From Gnetum montanum (lineage: Eukaryota; Plantae; Gnetophyta): a stretch of 64,000 bases of DNA. This document shows, piece by piece, positions 12,301 through 61,357 of the stretch. How positions within the stretch are numbered: position 1 is the first letter of the stretch; every line of letters starts with the position of its first letter. The position numbers and the translations under genes are program-made. The stretch is taken from NCBI GenBank assembly GCA_015680685.1, contig MNCI01001419.1, positions 177,492 to 241,491 on the forward strand, written 5' to 3'. The notes under the pieces are model-generated. The model was not told the DNA's origin. It saw only the letters and a program-made list of their open reading frames with translations, and ran no database searches.

Positions 12301-14680
12301 GATACTATCTTTGGTCATTTCTATTATAGCTTGTGGGATGGTTATAGTTGCTATAATCGAATCCAAATTATGTTAGAAGATTAGGTCAAGACAACATTCA
12401 TAAGTTCCTATGGGACTTTTGCATATGGGAAGATGTCATTCAGTCCATGTAATGTCCTTGCAACATTTTAATGCCTAGTCCTTATTGGTAGCAGGGTAGA
12501 AGTCTTTATGGTTGACTTCTCTACTTATGGGGCTACATTTGAAAAAGCCCTAGACCACCTTGAGTAGGTTCTAAAGGGATGTGTCAAAACAAACCTTAGG
12601 CTCAATTGACAAAAAAGCTATTTAATGGTCCAAGGAGGCATAGTACTAGGGCATAGAATTACTTAGGTAGGGATTGAGGTAGACCTAGAAGAAATAAGAA
12701 TCATCCAAGGAATCACACGCCAACTAGAGATAGTTAAAAATGTTCAATAACTCCTTGGACAAACTAGCTACTACTGGTAATTCATAGAGAATTTCTCTAA
12801 GATAGCGAAGCCATTGGTCAAGCTTATAAAGAAAGATGCTCTATTTATCTAGACCAAAGAATGTGAACATGCATTCCAACAATTAAAAAATAAACTCATA
12901 GAAACTCCAATTCTATGATCACCAGACTAGTCCAAACCATTTTACAGAATGACAGATGCATCTGATTATGCCTTGGGAGCTATTGTTATGGAGTTGGATG
13001 ATAAGAAACATCCATATTACATTCACTACACAAGCTAAAGCATTGTGGGTGCACAATTGAATTACACCACAACTAAGAAGGAATTAATGGCAATTGTGTA
13101 TACTCTCAAAAGGTTCAAATACTATGTGCTTGGCTACAAACTATTTATCCACACATATCATAATTTTATATGATTCCTAATAAATAAGCTAACAATAAGC
13201 CACCATATTGTATAGTGTCTTGTGATCTTGTAGGAATTCATTCTCACAATTGTAGATCAAAAAGGATATGAGAATGTGGTTATCAACCACCTCTCTTGGT
13301 TAAGATGTGATAATAAAGAGGAGAAGAGCCTGCTCTCTGATCAATCTCTATATGAACTCCTCTTTACAAGAGTTATAAATGACCAAGCACCCACTAAACC
13401 AAATTAGTATGCTAGCATGCTCACTTACCTTCTTACTCAGGAGATGCCACAAGATCTATACTTTAGGAAGAAATAATAATTTCTTCATCGGGTAAAGTAC
13501 TTCATGGAAATCAATGGACACCTTTACAAATTGTGCACTAATGGCCTAGTTCATTGGTATGTCCCTAATGTAGATCAATTGCATGTTCTCTATGATGCAC
13601 ATTAAGGCCCTTTTAGAGGCCACTATTCAGGGAGATGCATGACCATAAAAATCCTAATGGTAGGCTACTATTAGCCTACAATCTATAAGGACACCCACCA
13701 ATTTGTCTGATCTTGTGAACATTATGAAAAAGATGGTGGGATGACTACTCAAATGGAGGGTCCTCAATAGTGGATTTAGCCATTAGAGCTCTTTGACATA
13801 TGGGGCATTGACTTCATGGGTTCCACCACACCCATGTCCAATAAAAAGATGTATATCATCATAGTAGTCGACTATTGCATCAAATGGGTATAAGCAGAAG
13901 CCATCACTAATTGTACATCATCCACTATTGCTAGATTTATACAAAAAAATGTTATCATTAGGTTTGGGGTGTCATGTTCACTAATTTTTTCAATGGAACT
14001 AATTTTATAGGTGCCACCTTTTGAAAACATATGTAATTCTTAGGGGTCAAACATAAAATAACAACATCTTATCACCGCCAAGCCAATGGTTAAGCAAAGG
14101 TAACCTACAAGGGGATTACAAAGATCCTAATAAGAACCATAAGAAAATATAGGAGAGATTGGAGCACAAAACTTAATGATAACCTATGGGCTTACCTCCT
14201 AACATGAAAAATTCCTATTGGCTACTCTTCTTTGAGTTAGTATATGAAAAAGTTTCAACACTTCCAATTCAATCTAAGCTCCACATACTCTCAATCACCT
14301 ATGAACTAAATCTTGACTTGAGCCTAGCACATAGAGAATGATTGATCAACATCAACATGCTAGATGAAAATCAATTAGTGGTCCTATCTTTGAAGGAAGT
14401 GCATAAGGTATTCATTAAGCAATGCCATTACTCAGGAATATAGAAAGTAAAGTTTCAACTGAGAGATAAGGTTCTCTTTTGGAATCCCACACATGTACCA
14501 TGAAAAAGTAAGTTTCAAATGTTATGAAAGGGATCTTATATAATTACTAAAGCCTTTCCCTCTAGGTCCATGACCATATACAAACTTGAGATCCCAAATA
14601 AAAGGCAGTTGGTCAACATCCAACAAGTAAAGCTTTTCCATGAGCCTAAGCAAGCCAATGCAATAAATACCTCAATGGAT
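9400..14680 (+). pseudogene. Athila gag-pol (retrotransposon gag, protease, RT, RNaseH, integrase), many stops
   Basis: KFKLFTRTLIKEAKS(W)Y gag motif ~9660; KALLDSSFDVNVI protease ~11240; DASDYALG ~12955; WGIDFMG and VDYCIKWV integrase ~13800-13890. Confidence 0.9.
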
Positions 14681-20836: not shown

Positions 20837-21939
20837 CTTGTCAAAAATCTATCCTTTGGAGGAAGATGAAATCCCAACTATAGCCAATCTCTTACATAAG
20901 TAAGGAAGGTTCCTCCCAAGATTTATAATGGCTCATGCAAAGGGCTAAAGGAGCTTCTTTAGACATGAACTCATCTAAGCACTGGTGGATTTTGATAATC
21001 TCAACTGTGGAGATTATTCCTTCTTTTATTTCAGAGGTATGGTATTGGGTCCTACTTCTATTGCATGGGAAGTACTCCTTTTCTCAACATACTCACTGAG
21101 ACTTATCTTGTCTTTAATCAAAGGAAACTCTAGAATAGGTACATCCTTCTAGTAAATCAACAAATTGATGAGGTAGGGATGACCAAGAATTCTCTCTTTG
21201 GAATAGAGGTTTAAAATTTCTTGATGAAGTGTGTGTCCTAGATCCAATGATAAACCTAAAAGAAGATAATAAAGTACAAAATCCTTGGGTGGTAGTAAAA
21301 TTTTGTAGCTACCTTCTTTCATCATGATGTTATACAGAACAACAAGTGACAAGCTGGAGGCATCATGAGTCATCTACTTCTCTCAATATGATCCATATCA
21401 AAGGACATATCTCTACCAAATAAGACATCACAGAGTTCATAATGTCCTATAGGCATTATACAATTTGCATAAATATCATGTATAGCATCAATGATTACTA
21501 GGAAGACATCAATACTAGAGATACCCTTAATTACATGAACTTAGGGAGAGACATCAAAAATAATTCCCCCAACCATTGATGTGAATTCCCCAACAATAGC
21601 ATTAGAAACAAAAATATTACAATAAAATTCTCTAATTAGTATCTTAGAAACTAGAAAATTCATAGTAATGAAAGTGTTCCAATTCAGAAACTTAAAATAG
21701 TCTAGCAAGGCTTGTTGTCTATGAGCCAGAAAAGCAAGAGAATGTTTAGAAATGATGCTACTTCTTTGATTTTCCTCAAACCTATGATGTTCACTCATGC
21801 TATGAAATTGAGGCATGCACAAGGGTGACATACTATTGATACTCCCTTTTGAATGATTTTTGGGTAATAGTCTGGACATTCCTATCTTCTTATGGGCCAT
21901 CTCTAACAAAATTGCTACAAATAGTGGAGTCCTAGTCAT
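20837..21939 (-). pseudogene. Sirevirus accessory ('env-like') ORF with PF20167-like domain; continues at ~7100-7640 beyond the Athila insertion
   Basis: FKFLNWNTFI..KILIREFYCNI..FTSMVGGIIFDVSP and LDLGHTLHQEI..LGHPYLINLL. Confidence 0.75.
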
Positions 21940-22549
21940 CTCTATGAGGTAGATCTAAAGGAATATGACAAAAAATGAGGATTTTATCTCTTATAGTGGT
22001 AAAAAATTAAGGGCTTTGAGAAAAAAAAAAGAGATCTTTTACGCATTTGAAATACATAGTAGATGTCTTTCTCACATAGTAGATGTCTTTTCTATGGTAT
22101 ACAGAAAATTAGACAAATGTCTTTGTTTACACGAAGATGTCTTTAGAGAGACATCTTTTATTTTTGAAAGAATTCTTTTATCAAAATCAGGATGGAGCTT
22201 GGGAAAGGTTGTCAATGGGTTATAGTCTTAATGAAAGCTAAAAAAACAAAATAAAACTTACCCCTACTTATCTATTATACTATCAAAAAGTGGTGGAGTT
22301 TAGAGATCTAGAGAATGAGTTTCCTCTTTTGAGGATTCTCCTCTCAACCAAACTTCTCCAATGTCCAAAGTATGACCTTCTCTTATGAATTTGTTGGTGA
22401 GGATGTCATGATTTCTCTATTCCTATTATTTAACTCTCCATTCATTTTTTATTTTTTTGATGTATTGAGTTGACATCTACTTTCCTTTGTGATCCTACAC
22501 AAAATCCTTTCTCAGTGAACTTTGATAAAACTAAGGAGTCCTATGATAT

Positions 22550-30559: not shown

Positions 30560-33500
30560 CTTCTAGTAACGCAGAATGAGTACGACTTAATCACAAGCAT
30601 TTTAGTGTGACTACTTGGTAACCCAGTAGTGTACCTACGCCATGTGCTTGGTAATCCCAGTTGTAGTCATGCATAAGGTCCAAGATGTGTATGGATGATT
30701 AAGGAACAGATGCTCATTACACTTAGGCTAGTTTAGATTCTCTCTCATCCTCTCTTCTAGCTTAGTTGATATTATTTCCCATCATACCTAGGAGTAGCAT
30801 TAGTGTAGGAACACATCATACACGTCACTCTCAACTAAACCATAAGTGACAAAGCTAATAATTGTCTAGGTGGGAAGACAGCGAACAGTGATCTACGAGT
30901 AACTATCTAGATACCACAACTAGTCCATCTGTGGAGTTCGACTGGATCATGCATGAAGTTCTTGTATTCATATGGTTGAGTGTAGGGGTACCTCATCACT
31001 CATCATTGGCACCGTTGCTAGGGATGAAGCTAGTTATCTAGATTAGTTATATCATACAAGGTCACTGTATAGGAATTAACGATATATCTTTTAGGAAGAA
31101 ATAATTACAAAAAGTCACATACAAATTCACACACAATTTAACAATCATGCCTCTCCTACAAGACTACAATAATGCCACATCTAGTGAGGAAATTCATTGG
31201 AGAACCAATGAATTATATGACAATGAAGGTTGGAGTATGCAATTTGAGGTGGGGGTTTCTTATAAACATAAACAAAGGTAGCATCGTCCCAACGCACGAA
31301 AGCGTAACTTCCTCGATGAAGATGAACCCCTACTGGCCACTACAAGCCTAACAAAAATACAAGAGGTTGTTCGAATCCCCATAGGCATCGTAAAGAGAGC
31401 CTCCTACCAAGGCTTGATTTAAACAAATTTTCCAATTTATCAGGAGGCTATGAATTAGATTTGCAACAACATTTACAAGGCTTCTACAATGCCTATGCAT
31501 GGAACAACATTGATAATGGTTGACAAAAAATCAAGCTCTTTCCTATGACACTCGTTGGCCAAGAAAAAGTATGGTATAGATCGTTAAAACCAAATTCAAT
31601 ACAACGTTGGCCAACAATGGTAAAACTCCTTAACGAAAGATATCAAACTTACGCAAGAGTGTCAGCCTTGAGGAAACAAATCCAAAAGTGGAAAGAAGCA
31701 CAGCATGAACCCTTGGACATGGCCTTAGAAAGATATTATGCACTATTAAACAACTGTCCAGGCCATGAGTTCTTTGAGGAAAGGCTAATGTACCATATCA
31801 TTGATGGGCTTCGTAATGAGACAAGAGAGACCCTACGGATGTATGCCCAAGATCAACTATATGAACTATGAACCCATCAATTCCAAGAGCTTATTAAGTG
31901 GGTACAAGAGAAGAAGGAGAAATGGCTATATGGGAGAGCGTTAAAAAACATCAACGGGACCAAAATCTTAACTTAACAAAGGTCCTTAATCACAAAAAGG
32001 AGAAATCAACCTATCTCAAGAAGGAAGAACCATCTTTGCTAGTACAACAATCATTAGAGGAAATCAAGGCAAGATCAATAAGATGCTGGAATGAATGCAT
32101 AAAAAGTGTGGGGAATATATCAATATTATTGGAGATAGAGTTTTCACAACCTGAGAAGTAGGAAAAAATATCATTAGACAATCAGAAAAAAGGGATGAGG
32201 AAAATAAGATCTCAAATGCCAATCATACCTATGAATGCAACATTTTCTATACAATCATCCCAAGGGCCAATGCCAAATCTTGTTACATTTATATGAGCTT
32301 TGGGGAAGCACGTTACACCTAGAGTTTGTACAAAGATACTATGTTCGATCACAGGGGCAACAATCCCAGTCATGGGGGAAGCCATCCCTAAACTGGGGAC
32401 ATCCTTCCTATCATCCGAATCTAAATGCTTATCTAGTTTAACATCCTATTTCCCCAACTAGGTCAACATACTCTATCTCAACGCATTATTATTCTACTCA
32501 ATACTATCAACCCATGTCCTCAACACAACCACCGCCTTGTGTTCCTTACACTTCTGCTAAATTTCAACATTCTCATCCTTTTCCTCCTTCTACATCGCCA
32601 CCAACTATTCCTGAAGTGTCTGCACCATAGCAACAACCCACGAATGTTACTTATGCTACTATTGCAAACAACAGTGAGAGACCTCCTCAACATCAAAGGT
32701 GTACATTCTTTAGACATGACTGTAGGAAGGGACAACATAGTTCCAAGGCCACTGCATTCTCCAACTTAGCACAAGTCCAACACTATGGTGCATCCTTCTC
32801 CTTGAACCCAACACCTCATGTCACCTCATTAGGACCACCAATTAACACTCCCACAACCATACAGCCCAATGAATACAACCACGGAGGATGACATCCCAAT
32901 CCTTGCATGCCATCTTATGATCTCAAGTATCATGGTCAACTCTTCATATGCCAAACTGCTAAAGTCACCAACTACAAGAAAAATCACTAGTGAGACACTG
33001 GGGCTAGAACAAGAAAAATAACAGATGGTAGGGCCAACTACAACTCAAATTCCAAGACCCAGCCAACTTCCAAACACGAGACCTAGTCAACAAAAAGAAG
33101 TAGGACCTAGCATGAGCTAGTAGGATCAACCACTGCCACCATCGCAAGATTACAAACTATCGATGAGCCATCTCGGGGCCATCTCTAAGATGGTCAATTA
33201 CGAAAGTCGTGATGATGAAAATCTCTTCCGTGTCATCAACGATGCTGTATAGCCTACGGTTTCTATGGATCGCATGCAGGGTGAAGTGTCCATTCAGATA
33301 GGAGGAGGAGAGAGTGCTTGGTCACAACAGATTTCAGGGAATGCTGCGTCCTTTCAGGTGCAGTTGGAAACTGGTGAAGGGGCCACAGTGATGGCTACGT
33401 AGCATTAGGATGTAGCAAGAGTCATAGAAGTGGTTGTAGATCACATTAAAGAATCATTCAATGTATCTATTTTTTCACTGGTAGATCTTATAGGAGCATG

Positions 33501-35263
33501 GGATGCTCAAACTTTGGCTAGTACCTTAATGACTCCTTCGGAACATGAGGATGTACTTGACTGATTGTTACAAACAGGATAAGTAATGATGTCCTTGTTT
33601 GACATCCCATAGGATGTTACAACAATATAATCAGACCTCATTTCCACCAAGGGGAAGTTGGTCATGACGGAGATGAGGGCCAAGCATGTTCAAGCAAAAG
33701 TGCAAAGATTGCAAGAAAGGCTTGTGACCTGGCAAGTAGTGCAGCGAGATCCTTCTCAATTTGTTCTCGTAGACCAGCTAGACACTTTCAGAACTAAGAA
33801 ATTTAATAAATTGTTGATAGAGAATAAAAGAGTCATGGAAGAAAAAGAGAATGTTGTTTGGGATGCCTCTGTGGCACAAGTGAAAACTTACATGCACGTC
33901 AAAACACTCAAAGCCTTACAAGAGGAAAATAAACAACTTGTTGTTGACAACCTTCAATTGACCTCTATGGAGAAATAAAAGAATGTTCTTGAGGAAAATT
34001 TTCAATAGTTGTGAGAATAACTAATCAAGGTCAACTAGGACATGAACCATTTAGCCAGGAAAATTGGATCCTCTCGATGGAGGAGGTACACGCCATCCAT
34101 CAGAAGATGGCCATTGAAATAAGCACATGGCAGAATGAGGCTAAATGACATGAGAAACTAAAGGAGCATTTCTGGGACTAGGTGGGGATGTATAAACAAA
34201 TCATCGAAAAGGAGATCTATATGGCCAAGGCCCACATCAATGCTCTTAGTGCTCAACACACTAACTAGTGGGGCATATTGGACACATACACATTTGTCGA
34301 CCCAGCTAAAGTTAAGAGCCGAGACCTACAAATCTAGGACCTTACAGAGTACATGGAGTTAGAAAACCTACAATATGCCAATCTTGCCATGTTAACAGTA
34401 GGGTGCTTGAGAATAGAGCTTGAGCAACAGGTAGCCACCACCTATGTCATATATGAAAGAGAATTTGCAAAACGCAAGAAAACATTGCAAACGTTGGATG
34501 TTGCAAATTCTAAACTCAAGGTGGTTAAAGAAAGCTACCAGGGGCAGAAAGGTGTCGCAACAGACTTGGCTTGATGGCTCATAGATTTTCAAGAATACAA
34601 AGACAAAGCCAGAGCCTACGAGGAGGAATAGTGGGTGTTTGCGGCTTGGTATGTTAAAGCAAATAAAATGTTTCTGGAACTACCGTGATCATGGGAAGTT
34701 CCAACTCCATTAAACATTGGAACATTAGCATGGACAACATAGGATTCTCAAACTGAAGAGGAGAAACTCTAGGTCATACTTCGACACCATCAAATCCCAA
34801 GACCTGGAGTGCAAAACAAGGGAAAGGCACCCATGGAGGAGCCACCACCACCAGGAACTACATGAGTTTCACCCAATTTTGTACTTATAGGATTTTATTT
34901 TACATTCTTCATGTTGCGTCTCAATTTTTTTCTGATTCCACACTATGGCATGAATCCATTCTAGTTAGTCAATAATCCCATACCTATCCACTGTGTAACC
35001 TCACTTTAACTCAAGGATGAGTTTTCATTCATTCATGGGGGTATGATGAGTCGTGAATTGTTAGCCATGATATCGTACCCATGATATCACGTATGCAATA
35101 TCATGTACCCGATATCACAGCCTAGACGAGATATCACAACCTATCTCCTCATTTATAAATAAGAGGCGATACCACAACTAGTCTGTCTACGGAGTTCAAC
35201 CGAATCGTGTGTGAAGTGCTCGTATTCGTATGGTTGAGTGTAGGGGTACCTCGCCACTCATCA
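30560..35263 (+). mobile_element. Non-autonomous Athila-related element (partial 5' LTR, PBS, gag, accessory coiled-coil region, internally deleted 3' LTR; no pol)
   Basis: LTR end CACTCATCA at 31005, PBS TGGCACCGTTGCTAGGGA, gag KLFPMTLVGQEKVWYRSLKPNSIQRW, ATGGGGGTA then TGATGAGT at 35044, CACTCATCA at 35263. Confidence 0.85.
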
Positions 35264-37688: not shown

Positions 37689-38852
37689 TTAATAAATAAA
37701 ACTAGTGTTACACAACAATGTATCCCTATGGAAATTTTGTGTTTGAGGATGTAGGTATGATGTTTGGTATATTTTGGGTGTACAAATGAATGTGAGGTAC
37801 CAACAACTTTTTATTTGTTCTAAAATGCTTATAAAATACTTTGTTCTTCAAATTGTACTGTAATTTTTTAAGTTCATTGTATAATTAGATTGGATGCAGA
37901 GTATCTTTGAAAAAACTATTCTTCATATTCCAAAATGCTTTTCTATCAAAATAGTAATGAAACATTTTCAAGTACCTCATATGGTTGGCCTACATGCAAA
38001 ATATATCTTCAGATTCATGTCACATGCAACGTTCCTAGAAAATCATCCCATTCCAAGTACATTGAAGAATACCTACCTACATCCTAGTATCCTGGAAACA
38101 TGTGAACTAATTGATCCTACTCATAGACAAAGCTACAAATCTAAATAATTTAATGACTTCCTAAACATGGATGATAATCTAAGTAATGAGTAGTGGGTAG
38201 CTCTTATAGTCAACCATACAAATCACAAGCATTCACGTTTAATTTAGATTAATAGTATTGAAATTGATAAGGTGTGAGGTTGCGGCGTTAACTCAACCAC
38301 GTTAAACAATAACAGTTTAAATTCTTAATCATTTCCATGTTGAAGATCTTTCTGGCACACCGTACAGTTGAAACACGTAACTTCATCTTGAAAGTATCTT
38401 TCTCCTTTTTATGTTTACTTAGTTAAATTTATTTGAGACGCGGAGACGCAAATGTTGGGAGGCATTCAATCCCTAGCGAGGGTCTAGAGCGTGTAGGGTG
38501 AAGCATTTTGTTCTCTGTTTGACACCGTCTTTATCAGTTATCTGTGTCGTTTTATACACCGTCTTTTTGTAAGGGGATGATTCCATTTATATTCAATCCA
38601 TTTAATAATTTTGTTTTCTAGTGAGGGAGCGAGCGCATCTGATAGGATAAAGGGATTGGACACCCTTTTGAAAACCATGTTAATGGTAAATATCTATGAG
38701 GGAGCCCGGCATCCGATGGGATAAGGGGATCGGATAAGTTTGTGAAAATATCTGATCGTGAGATATCAAACTCTGGTTTAAGAGCCGTACAACTTTCAAG
38801 CTGTCCAGATATTTATCTTTCATTTGTACATGTAGCAATAATGGAGCAGGTT

Positions 38853-40399
38853 CCTGCATCCTCGTCAGTACATCCAGAAGCAATTCCCGACTGATCCACG
38901 CTGGATGCAGCTCTTTGGAAGGAAATTCTCCCGAAAAAAATCAAGATGTTCGGGTGGCTGATCCTCCACCACACCCTCCCCATCCGGACATTATTGCATA
39001 TTAGGGGCATGGCAATCAGTACCCATTGCCCCTTGTCCAATCACTATACTGAGACGCTGCAGCACTTCATACATGAGTGCCACGTTACCAGACAATTCTG
39101 GCATACGGCCGGTCTCCATCCCATTAATGTTTTTGGGAACTCATCGACGCTTACTACACTGTGGATTCTGTGGAAGGCCAGAAATGAATGCATCTTTAAA
39201 GGCGTGGCCTGCCCTCCCCCGACTGTGTTATCTGGCAGGTTCAGGAAATTCTGGCATGAAATTACTGCCGCGATGGACCGGCATACCCGCCTCGAACCTC
39301 CCGTGACAGCTATTCAACGTCTGCTGCGATGGACCAGCATAACCCTCTCGAACCTCCCATGACAACTATTCAACGTCACCCAGAGCTTTGGCAATGGGCC
39401 TCTCGCATGAGGTGGACTAAAATTTTGCCCAGAATTGCCGCTGACCCCGAGCTTGACACCCGCCCCTTTTACACAAATTGGCACGAGGAGACCACCGTGT
39501 TTAGAGGGCAGCAGATTCATATTACGGCGGCATCGGTTGCCGCCGTGATTGGGGTGTCTTTCAGCAATGCTCACATTCCCCTGGGTGGGTTCGCATGCGG
39601 CTACTCTCGATTTCTTCCAGGGCCCCATCCCGAAGATGGCCAGTGGACATATCAAGGGGACGGCCCTCTCGTCCAGTGGAAGGCGGCGGCGAAGTTGGTT
39701 GAACGTTTTTTCATCCATTCTGGGTCACACCACAAGCTAAATGGGGTGCACTTTAAATTCATTCAATGTATGCGCAACGACACCCCCATCAACCTCCCTT
39801 TGTTTCTCTAGGAGTCTCTGCGGAGGCGCCACCCTAACAGACATCCCAGGCTGATTCGTGCCCTGTGGTTGGCTAGCACTCCCTCCCTGCCAGCTCAACC
39901 TTCGGATCTTCAGGAGTCGCGAAAGCGAAAATGCCAGGGTTCCGACGAGGGGACCATGCTCCAGCACCCTGATGTTGGCCAAAATCAGAACCTGCTGAGA
40001 CTGCACCCTGAGAAGGACCCTTCGACAAGAAATGATACCGTCGCCAGCAACACGGGGGCAGCTTCCGAACCCCCCAGCATAGTCACCGATCCAGACGCTG
40101 CTTTGGATTGAGGGCGTCCTCAAGGATCATATGATGGGCATCGCTCAGACGATCGAGGAGAACCGGCGCCACCCCTCGGTGGGGCCTGGACAGCCGGAGT
40201 TTCTCGCTTTTGCTCCGGGGGCGGTGGTTGCCTGCCTTCCTGCAGGGATGCCTGTGGCGGGGGGAGGTTTGGCTCCTCGGGGGGTCCTTTTTGTCTTGGT
40301 TGGTGTGGGGCCAGCGGTTCTGGTCCGCACTACGCGCCTATGTAGCTCCTTTGTTTTTTTTGGAATATAATTTTTCTCTCCACCTTTTCAGAAAAAAAA
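38853..40399 (+). mobile_element. 5'-truncated L1-type LINE (zf-RVT end of ORF2 plus an extra 3' coding region)
   Basis: 16-bp TSD AATAATGGAGCAGGTT (38837-38852, 40400-40415), poly(A) tail, and zf-RVT motifs WKEILPKKIKMFGWLILH..CPLS..ETLQHFIHEC..FW and LWILWKARNECIF. Confidence 0.93.
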
Positions 40400-40540
40400 A
40401 ATAATGGAGCAGGTTTATGATATTTAGCTTTCATTTGTCTAGATATTTATCTTTCATTTGTACATGTAGCAAAAATGGAGCAGGTTTATGATATTTATCT
40501 TTCATTTATACATGTAGCAATAATGGAGTAGGCTTATGAT
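40400..40540 (+). repeat. ~48-bp minisatellite that was the LINE target (first unit at ~38806-38852)
   Basis: GATATTTATCTTTCATTTGTACATGTAGCAATAATGGAGCAGGTTTAT recurs on both sides of the LINE. Confidence 0.8.
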
Positions 40541-41460: not shown

Positions 41461-42479
41461 ATGAGTATTTTCTATCAAATGAATGTACTATATGTTCAAT
41501 AGATGTTTTTTAAATACACACCTACTACGGTCAAGATGACTAATCTCAATGCCTATGCATCAAGCCTAATGGCAATTAACAAGTCATTCGTTACTAACTA
41601 TCAATAGGCAAGACCACTTATGAGTTACCAAGAATCTAGCCCACAAACCATTTAGTACAATAAATCACTCAAAATGGCAAGAGTAACTACTTACTACTAA
41701 TAAATGATATCATCTAAATTCCTTGAATAAGAATACAAAGCTCTTACACATAGCGTTAGTAAATGTCTTTCACATGATTACACTACCTTGCATTTTAGTC
41801 CCCTAATATCTATTACTGTTTCAATTCCTAATACTATATTTGGTTATAGTTACAATTTCTAATCCCATGACTTTTATACTCCATTTAAGAACTAGATTTA
41901 GTAATAGTTACCATCTCTAGTACCATGACTTTAATACTACAGTTAAGAAAGTTGCATTGAAAATAGTTTGGAACCATTTGAGATGCAATAGTTCGCCAAT
42001 TCCCCCAAAATAAATAGTTCACCATTGGTAACTGAGCATGATTACATCTATTCTATTTAGGATTTAAAGAAATCTATGATATGGTTTGTGACCCATGTAT
42101 GCAATGCTAAAACTATGACCAGCATTAATAAAACCATGATTGGGATGCATGATGTTCATTCAACCATGTATGTATGTACATGATTAGACATGGAGATATA
42201 TGATCCATAGTTATTTGCAACCAACATTACGAGAACGAACCTACCTACAGTCAGTCATAGCACATGGGAATATTAAAGTATTGAAAAACCCTACAAAATG
42301 CATCATCTCAGAGTCTTCGTTAAAAGCTTACTGGAAGAACCTCAAGTAACCAAAAGCACTTGTTTCCACTACAGTGTAAATCACTAGAAGTTGAACCCTT
42401 TTCGGCAACATCTGCAGAAAGACTATGACTAACAATCCCTTCTAGTCCATTGTAAATTTATGCTAAAAGTCCTTTGATA

Positions 42480-45310
42480 ATCTAGAAGGCTCGATGCAAG
42501 TTTGAATGCATGCTATTGATTGCATTAGGCCTTTTGGAAGTGATTGTAGGCACGTTGGTGGGCACATCACCTTGTAGTTTGTGTAAAAATCCTACTAGTA
42601 CTATGTCCACAGACTGGAAGTAGTGGTTTCCAAGTAACTGGTCATCATGTGAGGTGACTTTCAAGCATATTGTAAGTGCACTACTACTAGCATTTCCTCG
42701 TAGTCCATTGAAAATCTGGGCTGGAAGACTTCCTATCATTTGGAAGCCTCAATGCAAGTGTGAATGTGAACTTTTGGTTGCATTAGGACATCTAGAAGCA
42801 ATTGTTGGTAAGCTGCTAGATGCATCCCCTCACAATCTATGTAAAAATCCTACTAGAAGTGTGTTTGCCAAGTAGTAGCAGCGGTTTCCAAGTAACTGGT
42901 GATCAACAAAAGTTGGGTGTCTTTTAGGCTAACTACGAGTGGACTACTATTAGCAGACCCTTGTAGTGCATTTTAAATATATGCTATAAGTCTTCCAATT
43001 ATGCGAAAGCCTCTATGCAAGTGTGAATACGCACTACCAATTGTAGTAAGACTTTCAGATGAGACTATGAGGTTGCTGCTCAACATACACCCTCGCAGTG
43101 CATGTGAATATCCCACTAGAAGTGCATCTGTAGACAAGAAGTAGTGGTTTCCAAGTAACTAGTAATCAATGGAAGTAGTGACTTTCAGGGCCCACTACGT
43201 GGTGATTGTTGGATACAACCCCCCACACTGAGTGTTAATATCTCATCAAAAGCACCTACATAGATAGAAATAAGTGGTTTCCAAGTAATTGGTGATCAAC
43301 AAAAGCAAGGTGACTTCCAAAGCCTATTACAAGTATGCTACTCAACATAATCCCTCATAATGTGTTGTAAATCTGAGCTGGAAGTTTTTTAATCATCCAA
43401 AAGCCTCCACACAAGTGTGAATGTGTGTTTTTGGTTGTAGCAGAACTTCTAAAAGTTGTTACGAGGTTGATTGTTGGATACACCCCTTCACTCTATGTGT
43501 AAAAATCCCACTAGTAGTGCATCCATATATAGGAAGTAGAGGTTTCTACGTAACTAGTGATCAATGAAAGCTAGGTGACTTTTGAGACCTATTGTGAGCA
43601 TGTGACATGATGCACCCCCTCGCATTATGTTGTAAATCCAAGCCAAAATTATTTTGATCACTTGGAAGCCTCAATGCAAGGGTGAATGTGCACTATCAAT
43701 TGCAATAGGATTTCTAGAAGCGACTATGAGGTTGTTGCAGGATGCATCCCCTCATACTATGTGTAAATATCCCACCAAAAGCATGTTTATAGAAGGGAAG
43801 CAGTGGTTTCCAAGTAAATTTTAATCAATAGAAGCTGGGTGACTTCTAGGGCCTATTGTGAGCATGTGACATGATGCATTCCCTCGCATTCCACTGTAAA
43901 TCTAAGCTAGAAGTCTTCTAATCACCTGAAAACCTCCATGCAAGTGTGAATGCATGCTACTGATAGTAGTAGGACTTCCAAAAGTGACTGCGACGATGCT
44001 GTTGGATGCACCCCCTCATAGTATGTGTAAATATCCCACCAAAAGTACATTCATTGACTAGAAGTAGTGGTTTCCAAGTAAATGGCGATTAATAGGAGCT
44101 AGTTTTCTCTTGGAACTATTGCGAGTTGATTGTTGGATGCACCCCCTTGTAGTGCATTGTAAATATGACCTACAAGTCTTTTGATCACCTAGAAGCCTTC
44201 ATGCAAGTGTGAATGCACCCTATCAATTATAGTAGGACTTTTGAAAGTGACTACGAGGTTGCTACTGAATGCACCCACTTGCACTATGTCTAAATATTGG
44301 GGCTTACCACAAGTTGACTATTGGATGCACTGATAAAAAGTAATGGTCTCCAATTAAATGGTGATCAATGGAAGCTAGGTTGGGGCTTACTACAAGTTGA
44401 TTGCTGGATGCACCCCCTCGTAGTTTGTTGTAAATCTAAGTTAGAAGTTTTCTGATCATCTAAAGGCCTCCATGCATGTGTGAATGCATGTTACTAGTTG
44501 CAGTAGAAATTTTGAAAGTGACTACGAGGTTGCTACTAGATGCATCCCCTTGCACTATGTGTAAATATCCCATCGAAAGCATATCCATAGATAGGAAGTA
44601 GTGGTTTCTAAGTAACTAGTGATTAATGGAAGCTAGGTAACTTTCGAGGCCTACTGTGAGTTGACTATTGGATGCACCCCCTTGCAATGCATTGTAAATC
44701 CATGCTGGAAGTCTTCTAATCATCTAGAAACCTCCATACAAGTATGAATGCATGCTACGGGTTGCAGTAGGACTTCTAGAAGTAATTGCAAGGATGCTAC
44801 TAGGTTCACTCCCTTACATTGTGTGTAAATGTCCCATCGAAAGTATGTCTATTGATTGGAAGTAGTGGTTTGTAAGTAAATGATGATTAATGAAAGTTGG
44901 CTAACTCCTAGAACTACTATGAGTTGGCTGCTAGATGCACCCCCTCGCAATGCATTATAAATCCAAGTTAGAAATCTTATACTTAGCTAGAAGCCTCCAT
45001 GCAAGTGTGAATGCACACTACTAGTTGCAGTAGGACTTCTAGAAGGGATTGCGATGTTGCTACTAGATGCACCCCCTCGTACCATGTGTAAATATCCCAT
45101 CAGAAGTGCATCCATAGGGTGGAAGCAATGGTTTCCAAGTAATTGACAATCAATGGAAGAAGGGTGACTTCCAAAGCCTATTGTGAGTACGTTGCTTGAT
45201 GCATCCACTCATACTATGTGCAAATATCCCACTGGAAGTGCATCTACAGATTGGAAGCAATGATTTTCAAGTGATTGGTGATTCATAGAAGTAAGGTGAG
45301 TTTCGAAAGC
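42480..45310. repeat. Tandem array, ~264-bp unit, ~10-11 copies
   Basis: CCTCCATGCAAGTGTGAATG anchors at ~42489, 42747, 43010, 43404, 43669, 43933, 44196, 44467, 44731, 44994; AGTGGTTTCCAAGTAA in each unit. Confidence 0.95.
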
Positions 45311-45944
45311 AACTCTGAGTTAGATGCGAGCTACAAGTTTTGAAAAGGATGCAAAACACATTGGCTTACACCTGCTTAAGAAAAAGTATATGTACAATGA
45401 ATGAACAAAAAATAATAACTGAGGTTTTAGATTACAGCCTTGTGGCTAGTTGAAGAAAAGTAGAGAAAGAAGGTTTGTAATGATTTCAAAGGTGTTTATG
45501 AAGGTTGATTTAAATTTGTAAGTTGTCTTTAACATTTTTAATGTTTGTAGAATGCAGAATTGTTTTTTGAGTTACCATCCAAAAATCATTTTTGTTTAGA
45601 TGTGAGGACAACAAGACCATGCTGGTTTTTTCGAAATAGTATGGTAACAAGAAATACAAGACCTAGAAAATGATGCTTTTTCAAAAAATGAAATAAGATG
45701 ATCCTATTTCTATGATGATGCTTTGCTTTAATATACAGAGAAAGAGTGAAAAATTTATTGTGGGTAAACAAAGAAATGCAATGTTTCATTGTGAATTTTC
45801 AAATAGGAAGAAGAATCAACAAAAATGGGAAAAGAAAACTTACTTCCAAGAAAACCGCTACACTTTTCATGCAAGGTAGGTTTTCTTAAATTTTCAAATT
45901 CCTCAACGATGTTTATGATATATTTGTATATTGCATATTTTCAG

Positions 45945-54960: not shown

Positions 54961-57436
54961 TTAGTCAAGCACTAAATGACTAAGAATATCTTGTATCATG
55001 GTATTTTGATACATAGAAACAAAATTGTTGCTAAATTTTATCTCTTTTCTAAATACTAAATGGTGCATGAACAATATCGTGTGCATGCCATAATCATATC
55101 CATTTTCTTGAGTAGGTATGCCTTGCACAGCCGTTGTACTCCACTTTGATGATGACTTCTTTTGCTTTGCCTTCACCTTAGTTGTGCTTTCAGCAATTGA
55201 AGAATCACCTTTGAATAAAAAATCAAGAAATGTTGACATTAACTTTTGAATAGTAGCTACATGTTGGGAAGAAGGTAATGAATTGTAAACACACATTTTA
55301 CTAGTACATGTGTCTAAGACCACGAGCACCTAATGACCGCCAATATTGAATGGGGTGCAAAATAATTACAGTCATGATTCAAAAAATTCATCCTAATATA
55401 TTTTAGATTTCACATATTCAGTAAATTCCTTCTTTGTCATGAACACATCAACCTTTTCTTCACGTGATGTGTCACTTTCAACATTGATCACATGTCTTTT
55501 TGTGGGCTTCTTTGCTTTATGTCCCAACAGGTTTTTTTTGCTATGTTGCATCTTACTCTCTAGGGACTTTGCAAATGCTTGAAACATAATATTAAATACA
55601 AAATATTTTTTAGATGCTTCACAATCAACATTAGCTTTCTAAAGTTGCTTAAGGTACATGATGTACACATCAATGACATCATCATCAAGCCATTGTTTTC
55701 ATCCAAGTTGGTATACAAACCTGAAAGACATTCCTATGGAAATGAATGGGGGAAGCAGTGACATAATAAGGACTTCACTATTTAAATTGCTTGTGACAAG
55801 CAATTACATTACTCTATTAACTATCACACATGATTAACCAATTAGGATGATGAAGTTAGCAGGCTTCACTATTTGAACTGTACCAGATGGTAGATCAATT
55901 GGGCTATTCAAGTCTACATCACCTACATGTGAACATTCATAAGATGGACGTCAACATACATAAACAAGTGATCCAAACAAGTCTACTTATATGTTTCTTC
56001 ATTTGGATTATTTTATTGAAATACTTCTTTGATGTCTCCTTTAACTGAATCAAATAATCTTCTGGCAGCTTTCGTTGTTGCCATTTTAGTCATTTATGTT
56101 CAACACATGTACAATACAAAGACCATTGAAATTTATAAAAGATATGAACAATGTATTAAAACTACAAGGTTTTATAACATGGCACAAACCTTTGATAGTA
56201 TGAACCCCATTAGCACAAATGTCCTTACTATAAAAAATATCAACTATAGCATTTTTTAATGACATAATTTTTTATTCAGTGTGAATATTGGTTTCCCCAT
56301 GTTTTCAATCTTAGCAAGCAACTTCTAGTTAAATCTATTTTGTTCAGCCACATAACTCTCATTTTTGACCTTCAATTGCACATGTTCTTTTATCAAACAT
56401 GATCTATATGATTTTAGCTCCTCTAGAGCACTCCAAACTGTTGAATTGCTTTGAGAATAATTATTTAAAGTCTCCATCACATGTTCCATCTTATCATCAA
56501 TGGATTGGTAAGAGAATTTTTCATGTTGGCAACTATTATCGATAGCTTAGGTTTAAAGTTCTTTCAAAAAATAGGTCTCACCCTTGTTGGACACTAATGT
56601 AATCTTCAATATACTTATAGGATCTAGGAGGACTATTCCATTCATTTGGATAGCCATAAAATGAATATTTTTTAGCAATTATTTTGTCACTATAATGGGA
56701 AAGCTAAGGGACTCTTTCACATCATGGAGCTGCCATAACCTTGCCCACCTCTTCATCTCAAACATGATAGTCATTGGGATATCAAATGGAACACTTTCAT
56801 TATTTTCCAATGCCCACATGAGTAATATTGCATTATTGAAAATCTTTGCTTTCATTTCTTTCACTAGAAATAAAGACCATTGCATAAATTTGGAAAGCAA
56901 CAAAAGCTTTGGATAATCATTTGGATTATCATCTTTCATCTTAAATTTTTGGGCATACTTGTATAACATCTGTAATGTCATGAACATTGAAGGTGAAATT
57001 TTGTCTTTGAATGGTAGGCTGTAGAGTACTTTTCGCAATAAACACACTATCAGTTAACCATTCATAAAAGCTGTAAACAATATTTTTGTCATAACTTCCA
57101 TCCATTGTCATCCATTGAAAAATTTCAATTTTCTTTAATTTTCAAGAAAGAATAGACATTTTTGGCAAGTCTAATTGTTTGTAGATTATATTCATAGAAA
57201 ATGCCAATAGCTACAATTCAATCAAATAAATAAAATGTTATCATAACATAAAGTAGAGTACTTGAATTAAGACATATATACTATCAATATTGGTTCATAT
57301 AAAACACAAGTACTCACATAGAAGATCCCTTTTGCTAATCCCCATCATTCTAACAAGCTCCATGTTCAAACACAACTTCAACAATATCCCTCAATGACAA
57401 AGACAATGTAATTAGAATAGCCTTCTTTGGTAATCC
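54961..57436 (-). pseudogene. Multi-exon Ulp1/SUMO-type (C48) protease gene with an N-terminal PF20167/DUF1985-like domain
   Basis: QWLDDDVIDVYIMYL; TPFNIGGH(W>*)VLVVLD..VY(D>N)SL; IPTQENGYD(C>Y)GM. N-terminal part: FQWMTMDGSYDKNIVYSFYEW..TIQRQNFTFNVHDITDVIQV..FDIPMTIMFEMKR..LSFPIIVTK. That both parts form one gene is inferred from strand and proximity. Confidence 0.82.
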
Positions 57437-58670: not shown

Positions 58671-61357
58671 ATGAGACCACACGCCTTGCCATTGCCATTT
58701 CCAGCTCAAGGGCATGTGAATCCGTTTGCGCAATTAGCACAGATTCTGATTCATGAAGGAGTGCAGGTTACCTTCGTGAACACTGAGCACAACCACAGGC
58801 TGCTCAATCCCGTATCCAAAGACGGTGGTGGCGGTGCTGGTATTGGGATTCGATTCGAATGTTTTGCGGACGGGTTACCGCCGGAGCACGGGCGAGCCCA
58901 GCAGTTGACGGAGCTGATCGATGTGCTCAAACGCGAAGCTCCGGCTCACATTGAGCGCATCATGATGGAGTCCGCGGCCCACGGTGATCCCGTTACGGTG
59001 ATCATATCGGACGGTATCTTCTCCTTCACCAACGATATTGCTCGCCGTCACGGTGTTCCCCGCGTAGCATTCCAGTGCCTGCGGATTTTCTTGTTACCAC
59101 TACATGCCCACTCTCGTCCGCCATTGTTACGTTCCCTTACCTGGTATGCTCGTGCTATTTTAGATTTCACAGGTTCATTTCAGTATCTGCCTTTCAACAA
59201 TCCAAGGCTGCAACTAAAGAAATTTAGAGGTTAAGAGTTAGAATCTTTATCACTATTCAGTTTATTCGTTCGTCAATATGAATTTTTTTAGTATATCTTC
59301 AAGGATTTGCTGTGTGTACAGTTACTTCTTACCATCTTTTATTCGGTTTCAGTTTTACTATTTTATTCTGTTTCTCCATTTGACTCTACGAGTTAAATTC
59401 CTTGTCCATATCCCGTTTCTTTTTATCATCTTTAATCAAAAACTCAATGATTTTTAGTCTTTTGGGGCTTCCTTTAAATGACTCCTGAAAATTTCTTTCC
59501 TCATTTCTTATTTGACTTTCTCACCACCAGCTCGTTTGATTCTCACCGGTTAAATGCTTTGTATCTGGTGCTGAAGCCATCCCTTCTCTAAATCCTTGTT
59601 AAGGGAGTATAACATGTTATACTTATCTTTCAAAATACTATTCCTAATTCATTCTCCGATTCTTACCACTCATAGCCGATGTATTAATTACATGACTGCA
59701 AGATGGGTAACCGCGTTCATTTACCAACATTTTTTTTTGGCACGATCTACAATTGTTCTTTTCACTCGCCATTTTATATTTTAATAGCTTTACAGGAGAG
59801 TTATTGGTGAGGATAGCAACAAAATTTACAGGGCATTTAAAAATATGTGATATTACAGTAAAAGTTCAGTTAACTTTTATCATTTTTTATTTATCTAAAT
59901 CAAATTGCGTGCCGAGAATGCGTGCCGAGACTCCCGTCAACCTTTGGCACTTCCTCTGGCGTCCTTACAACGGCAGCGCCCTGGTAGACAGCCTGGGGTA
60001 ATCCATGCTCTCTAGCAGGCTGGCACCCCGTTCCCAATGCGTTCACCGCAGCCTCAACCGCAAACGGGCTGGACAGGTCCCACGAAGTGACGTGTTGACT
60101 GCAAACGTTAGACATTCCGCCGCTTCCCGCAATCATACAGCCGGACGCTGATCTGATCCAAAACGTTATAAGAAATCCGGCTGATCTGATCGAAAACGTT
60201 ATAAGAAATCACATGACAGGCATTGCCCAGTTAATCGAGGAAAACCAACAGCGCGGCCATCCTGGGGAGCCTATTCGAGACTCCAAACCTCCTAAGAAAG
60301 TCAGGCGCTCTGGGTAAGGGACTCGGTGTGGGGTGTACGGGCCGCCGGCGGTGATGCCTATGGTGGTTGTGGTCCACGGGGAATCCAGGGTTGGGGTCGG
60401 CGGGCCGGTGTGGTAGCTCTGGCCTAGGCACTGATGTATAGCCTTGGTCCGCGGGGGATCCGGTGTTGGGGTTCGTGGCCAGTGTGGAGCCAACAGCTCT
60501 AGCCTACGCTGTACTGATGTATAGCCTTCTTTTTTGGGAATACAATTAACTTGATTTTTATCAAAATAAAAATAAAAAATCAAATTGCTATAGTAAAAGT
60601 GATCATCTTCTTATTGAAATAGGTCCATACACCAAGAGAACAATGACCGCAAAATATATATTTTTATTTTGCCCTTGAACTCATAGATTTATACTATACT
60701 AATCTTTGACACTATTCGCTTAACATATTACAGCAATGATGTTTTGAACTTTCCTTCTTTGACACCGTTCCCAACTTTCTTTCTTTGACACTGTTTCCAG
60801 ATAACGTAAACATTTGTGCGTGACGATGCAGAGGACAAAGATGCGAAGCGGAGTGGATGGAGAAGAGGGTAACCTGCATACCGGAGATGGGCACTGTGCG
60901 AGTCAAGGATGTGCCCAGCTTCTGCTTGGTCACCGGCACCTCCGACTTCTGCTTCCAGCACTTCCAAAACGAAGCGCAGCAGATCACAGACGCGGACCTC
61001 ATCTTGCTGAACATTTGTGTGTGGGTGGGTTCCTGACGCACAGCGGCTGGAACTCCACGCTGGACAGCCTCTGCGCCGGCTTGCCCATGCTGTGCTGGCC
61101 CTTCTTCGCCGAGCAGCAGACGAACCGGCGCTTCGTGAGCACCGTCTGGCGCGTCGGATTCGAGATGGACGAGGAGGTCCAGCGTGACCGTGTGGCGGCG
61201 ATGGTGGAGAAACTCATGGACCGAAACGACACTGACGCTGCTGCCGTACGCAAAGAAAATGCGTGAGAGAGCTCTCGCTGCCATGGCCGCCGGCGGCAGC
61301 TCCGATGCCGGTCTGCAACGCCTGCTCAAGAAGAACAAGAACAACCTTTTGGTCTAG
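58671..61357 (+). pseudogene. Family-1 UDP-glycosyltransferase pseudogene (UGT85-like), exon 1 58671-59143, exon 2 ~60801-61357
   Basis: PHALPLPFPAQGHVNP and VTFVNTEHNH; partial PSPG box [32 protein letters not shown]. Frameshift at ~59072, in-frame TGA early in exon 2, large deletion at ~61016, frameshift at ~61255. Confidence 0.92.
59909..60576 (+). mobile_element. 5'-truncated LINE 3' end inside the UGT intron, related to 38853-40399
   Basis: 12-bp TSD AAATCAAATTGC (59897-59908, 60577-60588), A-rich tail, peptide homology to the other LINE's 3' ORF. Confidence 0.85.

What the first reader, a model, noticed from the sequence alone, without database searches (positions are those of the whole stretch)
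39273..40200. LINE lineage with a conserved extra coding region downstream of ORF2's zinc finger
After zf-RVT, where plant L1s end or carry RNase H, this LINE has ~300 more codons with the PF20167-like domain and no RNase H motif that I can see. A second, diverged copy at 59909-60576 encodes the same peptide: MRNDTPINLPLFL.ESLRRRHPNRHPRLIRALWLASTP vs MRAETPVNLWHFL.ASLQRQRPGRQPGVIHAL.QAGTP, and PDAALIEGVLKDHMMGIAQTIEEN vs PDADLIENVIRNHMTGIAQLIEEN (frameshifts repaired). Both lie between a TSD and an A-rich tail, so the ORF travels with the element. Protein conservation despite DNA divergence suggests selection rather than a one-off 3' transduction. I do not know of this domain in LINEs, but could not search.
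Basis: partly seen in the sequence, partly recalled or inferred. Interest (0 to 1): 0.8.

Follow-up and report, generated by a model that had tools for sequence, protein, structure and literature searches.

The report
LINE polymerase with LTR-type accessory domain
A many-copy plant LINE-type retrotransposon family extends its ORF2 reading frame past the usual zinc finger into a conserved domain resembling the accessory protein of LTR retrotransposons, which likely gives the copying enzyme its own chromatin-binding or anti-silencing module; the two copies in this window are broken.

Summary
Observation confirmed and sharpened. 38853-40399 is a 5'-truncated, A-tailed element with a 16-nt target-site duplication and zf-RVT (E 3e-13). 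The downstream region matches Transposase_32/PF20167 (sole Pfam hit, E 0.004, below cut-off; ESM Atlas 0.92), not RNase H. New here: it is not a separate ORF3. A 56-nt tandem duplication shifts the frame in this copy. Contigs from four organisms lack the duplication, so most relatives run from zf-RVT into the domain in frame, with no common stop at the joint. A diverged second copy (59909-60576) shares the 3' tail and shows purifying selection (pN/pS 0.34, 95% CI 0.21-0.50, synonymous sites saturated). Best reading: an L1-type lineage captured an Athila-type accessory domain as an ORF2 C-terminal extension; a chromatin-binding/anti-silencing role is inferred and untested. No full-length element, RT or endonuclease was seen (no genome held), and the fold model failed. 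Ten literature searches showed no such LINE; Repbase/Dfam were not checkable. The scan has two unchecked notes of related poly(A) elements (PF20167-type domain plus J-domain) elsewhere in this genome, with the upstream LINE part unseen. New variant of a known kind; interest 0.62.

The parts
38837..38852 (+). Left target-site duplication of copy 1 (16 nt)
   Evidence: identical to 40400-40415
38853..40399 (+). Copy 1: 5'-truncated non-LTR retroelement, broken
   Evidence: depth falls at both borders; 10 contigs of X6 continue upstream of 38853 with other letters
38910..39101 (+). zf-RVT (PF13966), the C-terminal zinc-binding part of plant L1 ORF2
   Evidence: E 3e-13; Atlas 0.95, 30 of 30 hits zf-RVT
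39265..39377 (+). 56-nt tandem duplication in the linker, present in this copy and at most a small share of relatives; it shifts the frame between zf-RVT and the extra domain
   Evidence: skipped by contigs; depth at the unit joint 0.017-0.054 of flanks
39383..39889 (+). Transposase_32 (PF20167)/ATHILA ORF-1-like domain; in this copy broken by two compensating small deletions near 39577 and 39674 and a stop at 39809-39811
   Evidence: (Pfam match 39461-39874, E 0.004, below cut-off), indel and loose-end tables
39890..40096 (+). Poorly conserved low-complexity spacer with a basic cluster (RKRK, 39920-39931; nuclear signal inferred)
40097..40169 (+). Conserved C-terminal block with an amphipathic-helix pattern, 12 of 20 residues identical to copy 2
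40269..40399 (+). 3' tail and A-run, homologous to the tail of copy 2
   Evidence: (65% over 141 nt, E 5e-7)
40400..40415 (+). Right target-site duplication of copy 1
59897..59908 (+). Left target-site duplication of copy 2 (12 nt)
59909..60576 (+). Copy 2: diverged subfamily, truncated inside the extra domain, with small internal duplications; lies in the intron of a UDP-glycosyltransferase gene
   Evidence: UGT
60577..60588 (+). Right target-site duplication of copy 2

Best explanation
This is a truncated, decayed copy of a many-copy plant LINE-type family whose ORF2 frame runs in most relatives from the zf-RVT finger straight into a PF20167/ATHILA-ORF1-like domain that was likely captured from an LTR retrotransposon and likely serves as a chromatin-binding, anti-silencing or targeting module on the element's own polymerase. 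Shown: TSD and A-tail, zf-RVT, the in-frame joint in relatives, purifying selection on the extension, and absence of an RNase H match. Inferred: (1) RT and endonuclease lie upstream in full-length copies; (2) the donor was a Ty3/gypsy (Athila/Tat-type) accessory ORF, picked up once by 3' read-through or template switching and then fused; (3) because ORF2p acts in cis and enters the nucleus with its RNA, the domain would reach the insertion site with each new copy; (4) by analogy with PMD- and VANC-type transposon proteins it would bind DNA or chromatin there and shield the copy from silencing or steer insertion, with the conserved C-terminal helix as a likely oligomerisation surface. I put the fusion architecture at about 0.85 and the chromatin/anti-silencing role at about 0.4.
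For: In-frame joint: the 56-nt duplication equals the offset between the two frames. One 500-nt X1 contig covers 39157-39309 and 39366-39556 with the 56 nt skipped. Joints with a net 56-nt skip occur in 2 contigs of X5 and 3 of X8. Loose ends at 39318-39321 that continue with the start of the domain appear in all 4 runs, of organisms A-D (6, 6, 9 and 6 contigs among the 24 of 146 rows shown). No indel reaches 15% in 39170-39480, and none of the 40 of 54 variant rows shown makes a stop at the joint. Selection: over 59 codons of copy 1 vs copy 2, pS 0.77, pN 0.26, ratio 0.34 (bootstrap 0.21-0.50), Fisher P 7e-9; differences by codon position 15/19/33; the two other forward frames give 1.35 and 1.03. 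The blocks coincide with frame-blind blastn hits. Domain. Literature: PF20167 sits in a nuclear-predicted 3' extra ORF of a sunflower Athila element (PMC11728184, passages); Athila domains are modelled as coiled-coil pentamers and VANC as MAIN/PMD-like (PMC13547354, passages and section 10); the ORF2 C-terminus tolerates foreign domains (PMC4686597, passages); PMDs occur fused to MULE transposases, speculated there to be anti-silencing (PMC5418596, passages).
Against: No full-length element, RT or endonuclease was seen (no genome held). The PF20167 match is below the curated cut-off, and no protein relative turned up in four database searches. Kinship of PF20167 with the PMD/VANC fold is my recollection and is untested: the single-sequence model had pLDDT 43 and its fold search was uninformative. 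Copy 2 does not reach zf-RVT. Not all copies keep the frame: a stop at 39253 upstream of the joint has about 15% summed share; one X6 contig has a net 63-nt, out-of-frame joint; a 670-nt deletion removing the domain occurs in one contig each of X5 and X6. Within-family variants shown in 39170-39480 are mostly non-synonymous (26 non-synonymous, 13 synonymous, 1 stop), as expected for decaying copies, and give no support for current selection. Contig depth is higher over parts of zf-RVT than over the extension, so zf-RVT relatives without the extension may exist.
Confidence: 0.45

Rival explanations
1. Same in-frame fusion, but the domain works in the ribonucleoprotein: RNA binding, oligomerisation or nuclear import of ORF2p, not chromatin or silencing.
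For: Basic cluster RKRK and conserved amphipathic helix; Athila domains modelled as pentamers with many predicted host contacts (PMC13547354, passages).
Against: The basic cluster is not clearly conserved in copy 2 (alignment); no test here separates this from the best reading.
Confidence: 0.25
2. The domain is a passenger: an LTR accessory ORF was transduced into the 3' end, perhaps twice from diverged donors, and the low pN/pS was earned in the LTR donors rather than in the LINE.
For: Only two subfamilies were compared, and copy 2 lacks the zf-RVT link; deletion and out-of-frame variants exist; within-family variation looks neutral.
Against: Both copies end in the same homologous tail directly before the A-run, which fits one capture followed by divergence as LINEs. 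A passenger would not be expected to stay in frame with ORF2 in most copies of four organisms.
Confidence: 0.15
3. The element is non-autonomous or chimeric: it keeps only the 3' end of ORF2 (zf-RVT) fused to the accessory domain and is moved in trans by ordinary L1s, or the domain is made as a separate protein from an internal start.
For: Nothing upstream of 38853 could be read; in-frame methionines lie in the linker and at the domain start.
Against: Ten X6 contigs continue upstream of the truncation point; zf-RVT in plants normally follows RT in L1 ORF2 (established knowledge).
Confidence: 0.15

Closest known systems
Plant L1-clade LINEs, including those with a C-terminal archaeal-like RNase H (Smyshlyaev et al. 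2013, seen only as cited in PMC4686597 and PMC5203782)
   Same: zf-RVT, 5' truncation, variable-length TSD, A-tail; an extra domain appended at the ORF2 C-terminus.
   Different: The appended domain is PF20167-like, not RNase H (RVT_3/RNH). PMC5203782 (passages) describes plant ORF2 as RVT_1 or RVT_1 plus RVT_3/RNH; its Pfam 28 predates PF20167 (recalled).
Extra ORFs of Ty3/gypsy Athila elements: Transposase_32 (PF20167) and ATHILA ORF-1 (PF03078); sunflower Athila 14 ORF(+) (PMC11728184); survey in PMC6317226
   Same: Same domain family by weak Pfam and Atlas matches; located at the 3' end of the element.
   Different: There it is a separate ORF in an LTR element; here it is in a poly(A), TSD-flanked element and in frame with ORF2.
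Insect R1/TRAS LINEs with a C-terminal viral SF1 helicase (PMC4686597)
   Same: A LINE ORF2 that captured a foreign domain at its C-terminus, with a proposed anti-silencing role.
   Different: Different clade, host and domain; the donor there is an RNA virus, here likely another retrotransposon class.
PMD-transposase fusions of MULEs and VANC anti-silencing proteins (PMC5418596; PMC13547354; 10.1101/2024.09.27.615353)
   Same: A transposon accessory domain fused to or travelling with the core enzyme; the functional model borrowed here.
   Different: DNA transposons; neither PF10536 nor DUF1985 was hit here, and fold kinship was not established.

Membership tests
Plant L1-clade LINE | Target-site duplication of variable length, 3' A-rich tail, 5' truncation | tested here: met
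   16-nt and 12-nt TSDs, A-runs; borders supported
Plant L1-clade LINE | zf-RVT at the ORF2 C-terminus | tested here: met
   PF13966 E 3e-13; Atlas 0.95; copy 1 only
Plant L1-clade LINE | APE endonuclease and L1-clade RT upstream, ORF1, placement in an RT tree | not testable with these tools
   Both copies are truncated; no genome held; contigs are laid only on window sequence
RNase H-bearing plant L1 | RVT_3/RNase H domain after zf-RVT | tested here: not met
   No RNase H family in the pieces scanned from 39260-40319; the same stretch matches PF20167 instead; recalled RNase H motifs not found apart from one generic match outside the domain
Transposase_32 (PF20167) / ATHILA ORF-1 (PF03078) | Profile match at the curated score | tested here: inconclusive
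   17.5 bits against 45, E 0.004, sole hit, covering profile 21-173 of 177 with about 32 residues in the wrong frame; Atlas 0.92, 171-176 shared features
Ty3/gypsy Athila-type element | Long terminal repeats, 4-5 nt TSD, separate extra ORF | tested here: not met
   A-tail and 12-16 nt TSD, no terminal repeats in either copy; domain in frame with zf-RVT in relatives
PMD/VANC-like anti-silencing proteins | Shared fold | tested here: inconclusive
   Model pLDDT 43; best Z 7.7, only generic helical repeats
PMD/VANC-like anti-silencing proteins | Sequence-specific DNA binding and loss of silencing on cognate elements | not testable with these tools
   Needs experiment

The most novel reading that the evidence does not exclude
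A plant L1 lineage took the Athila-type accessory domain from LTR retrotransposons and welded it to ORF2p, so that the reverse transcriptase carries its own chromatin-binding anti-silencing or site-choosing module to each insertion; the lineage then radiated into deeply diverged subfamilies, one of which may have added a J-domain (unchecked notes on this genome). This would be a transfer of an accessory function between retrotransposon classes and a cis-acting counter-defence not described for LINEs in the papers I could search.
Probability: 0.3. Interest if true: 0.8.

Novelty: new variant of a known kind. Interest (0 to 1): 0.62.

Why it matters
The function of the Athila/Transposase_32 accessory domain is a long-open question in plant LTR elements, where it is a dispensable-looking separate ORF. 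Finding it kept in frame and under purifying selection on a LINE ORF2 says it is useful without capsids, LTRs or integrase, which argues against a virus-particle or envelope role and for a nuclear one. It also makes the question testable in a compact system: one protein, with and without the tail. It adds a further example of ORF2 C-terminal domain capture (after RNase H and viral helicase) and a case of module exchange between LTR and non-LTR elements.

Tried and rejected
Whole-genome tblastn was impossible: no genome held. Protein searches with the domain found no relative: longer proteins (506 candidates, none at E 0.01), similar lengths (16 candidates, none). The 1.84-billion library gave 1 hit, a bacterial repeat protein matching query residues 125-155, which fall largely in the segment this copy reads in the wrong frame; rejected as spurious. 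A search with a gypsy-like ORF at 21544-21954 meant to collect PF20167 members found none; its pairwise match to the LINE domain is weak (E 0.03) and it has no Pfam hit. Metagenome and viral contigs: nothing. PDB sequence search: nothing under E 0.5. Single-sequence fold failed (pLDDT 43) and its structure search is meaningless. No RNA holder was listed. An oligo-dT run gave 46 laid reads of 12.6 million records, none 99% alike, on both strands: no evidence for or against expression. mis-registered the third codon block by one base (ratio 0.56); one search is the corrected run. Separate-ORF3 reading: rejected as the main form because relatives lack the frame-shifting duplication. RNase H reading: rejected. 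Literature: ten searches listed no LINE with this domain. Subscription papers (Heitkam 2014, Smyshlyaev 2013), Repbase and Dfam were not available, and one of the supplementary files of PMC5203782 could not be searched, so prior description is not excluded.

Full report
Setting. The window is plant DNA of about 36% GC with decayed retroelements (gag and integrase fragments) and a UDP-glycosyltransferase gene at about 58674-61263 whose best solved relatives are plant UGTs. The host lineage was not determined, and no whole genome is held.

The observation. Copy 1 runs 38853-40399 between 16-nt direct repeats and ends in an A-run; copy 2 runs 59909-60576 between 12-nt direct repeats, inside the UGT intron. 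Both are GC-rich (50-57%) against their surroundings. Copy 1 begins with zf-RVT (PF13966, E 3e-13; Atlas 0.95). Frame-blind blastn links the copies in three blocks: 39770-39887, 40097-40164 and the 3' tail, at 63-68% identity.

What the extra region is. Pfam finds nothing on 39260-39808 or on separate pieces. Read through its stop with X, 39371-39889 hits one family of 24,736: Transposase_32, PF20167, E 0.004, profile positions 21-173 of 177, at 17.5 bits against a cut-off of 45. The score is handicapped: other copies carry two more bases near 39577 and one more near 39674, so about 32 residues of this copy are read in the wrong frame. The ESM Atlas independently ranks PF20167 clusters first to third (0.92; 171-176 shared features; family shares 14%, 100% and 47%) and ATHILA ORF-1 fourth. 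No RNase H family was hit. I call it PF20167-like, not a proven member. After the domain come a variable spacer with a basic cluster and a conserved 20-residue block with amphipathic spacing.

Fusion, not ORF3. In the window the zf-RVT frame and the domain frame differ by two bases. A 56-nt tandem duplication lies in the linker, and 56 leaves the same remainder of two. Public contigs show that the duplication is not the family state. A 500-nt contig of X1 covers 39157-39309 and 39366-39556 and skips 56 nt. In a closer lay, 2 contigs of X5 and 3 of X8 show a net 56-nt skip, and contigs of all four runs (organisms A-D, two studies) leave the window at 39318-39321 and continue with the start of the domain (24 of 146 loose-end rows shown). 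Depth at the joint of the two repeat units is 2-5% of the flanks. No indel reaches 15% in 39170-39480. Of 40 variant rows shown (of 54), one makes a stop, at 39253, upstream in the ORF2 tail, at about 15% share. Reads and contigs of relatives also show a tryptophan codon where this copy has the stop at 39809 (loose ends). So most relatives read from zf-RVT into the domain without a stop, for about 280 further codons to the end of the conserved block. Exceptions: one out-of-frame joint in X6 and a 670-nt deletion of the domain in one contig each of X5 and X6. Summed depths in the hundreds to thousands along the element indicate many copies, though they are not copy numbers.

Selection. Over 59 codons of copy 1 against copy 2: pS 0.77 (saturated), pN 0.26, ratio 0.34 with bootstrap 0.21-0.50, Fisher P 7e-9; 33 of 67 differences are at third positions. 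The other forward frames give 1.35 and 1.03; two reverse frames give 1.30 and 0.98, and the reverse frame that shares third positions gives 0.50. The blocks are those found by DNA alignment alone, so the codon bias is not a product of picking peptides. Most close relatives lie 80-95% alike to copy 1, so post-insertion decay cannot saturate synonymous sites. The shared tail next to the A-run suggests the divergence happened within the poly(A) lineage. Limits: one pair, 59 codons, and copy 2 does not reach zf-RVT. Variation among close copies is mostly non-synonymous, as for dead copies.

Mechanism. Shown: a TPRT-type element whose ORF2 tail is fused to a selected PF20167-like domain. Inferred: capture from a gypsy extra ORF, since that is where the domain is described (PMC11728184, passages; PMC6317226, passages). 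For function I commit to a chromatin-binding, anti-silencing or targeting module carried in cis. The grounds are analogy: nuclear prediction for the sunflower Athila protein, modelled pentamers of the Athila domain and MAIN-like structure of VANC (PMC13547354, passages and section 10), PMD-transposase fusions (PMC5418596, passages) and PMD/VANC similarity (10.1101/2024.09.27.615353, passages). None of these passages states that PF20167 shares the PMD/VANC fold; that link is my recollection, and my fold attempt failed. PMC12844716 (passages) says it remains to be investigated whether Athila extra ORFs modulate methylation. An RNP or import role is nearly as likely.

Comparison with what is known. 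ORF2 C-terminal capture has precedents: RNase H in plant L1s and a viral helicase in insect R1 elements (PMC4686597, passages). A broad L1 survey lists plant ORF2 as RVT_1 with or without RVT_3/RNH (PMC5203782, passages); two supplementary files had no ATHILA, PMD, DUF1985 or Transposase_28 term, and file 1 could not be searched. Ten searches of the held library (listings only, except for the papers named) showed no LINE with PF20167 or PF03078. Repbase, Dfam and subscription papers were not available. The scan holds two unchecked notes on this genome of poly(A) elements with a PF20167-type ORF plus a J-domain and an unseen upstream part. I could not test them, and no look-alike sequence was found. 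If they are right, the present copy supplies the link to LINE ORF2 that they lacked. No J-domain was found in these copies.

Verdict. A real feature, well supported as an in-frame, selected ORF2 extension; domain identity probable; autonomy and function open. New variant of a known kind, interest 0.62.

Noticed in passing
window 42420-45320: Decayed tandem array, period 264 (132 sub-unit), about 6.7 copies at 73% match; may be an internal repeat of an LTR element.
   Followed up: no
window 21544-21954 (- strand): ORF with a weak resemblance to the LINE's extra domain (pairwise E 0.03); possibly a gypsy accessory ORF of the same family; no Pfam hit and no database relative.
   Followed up: partly
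window 58674-61263: GC-rich UDP-glycosyltransferase gene (best PDB hit 2pq6) with apparent frameshifts in both exons, copy 2 in its intron, and short repeats of upstream sequence after its 3' end; probably a pseudogene or mis-assembled.
   Followed up: partly
window 59906-59930, 60147-60210, 60370-60528: Copy 2 has a 13-nt duplication at its 5' junction, a 33-nt duplication and a roughly 75-nt duplication in the tail; both copies show short tandem duplications.
   Followed up: no
window 39290-39959: Contigs of two organisms (X5, X6) join 39289 to 39960, a shared deletion derivative lacking the PF20167-like domain.
   Followed up: no
window 54961-55326 (- strand): Ulp1/C48 protease fragment (PF02902, E 2e-7), typical of plant DNA transposon cargo.
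   Followed up: no
window 31524-33978: Decayed gypsy-like element: Retrotrans_gag (E 2e-12) followed by a coiled-coil-rich region.
   Followed up: no
window 2553-5110 and 12002-14551: Two 2.5-kb copies of a repeat at 73% identity, including an integrase fragment at 4326-4715.
   Followed up: no
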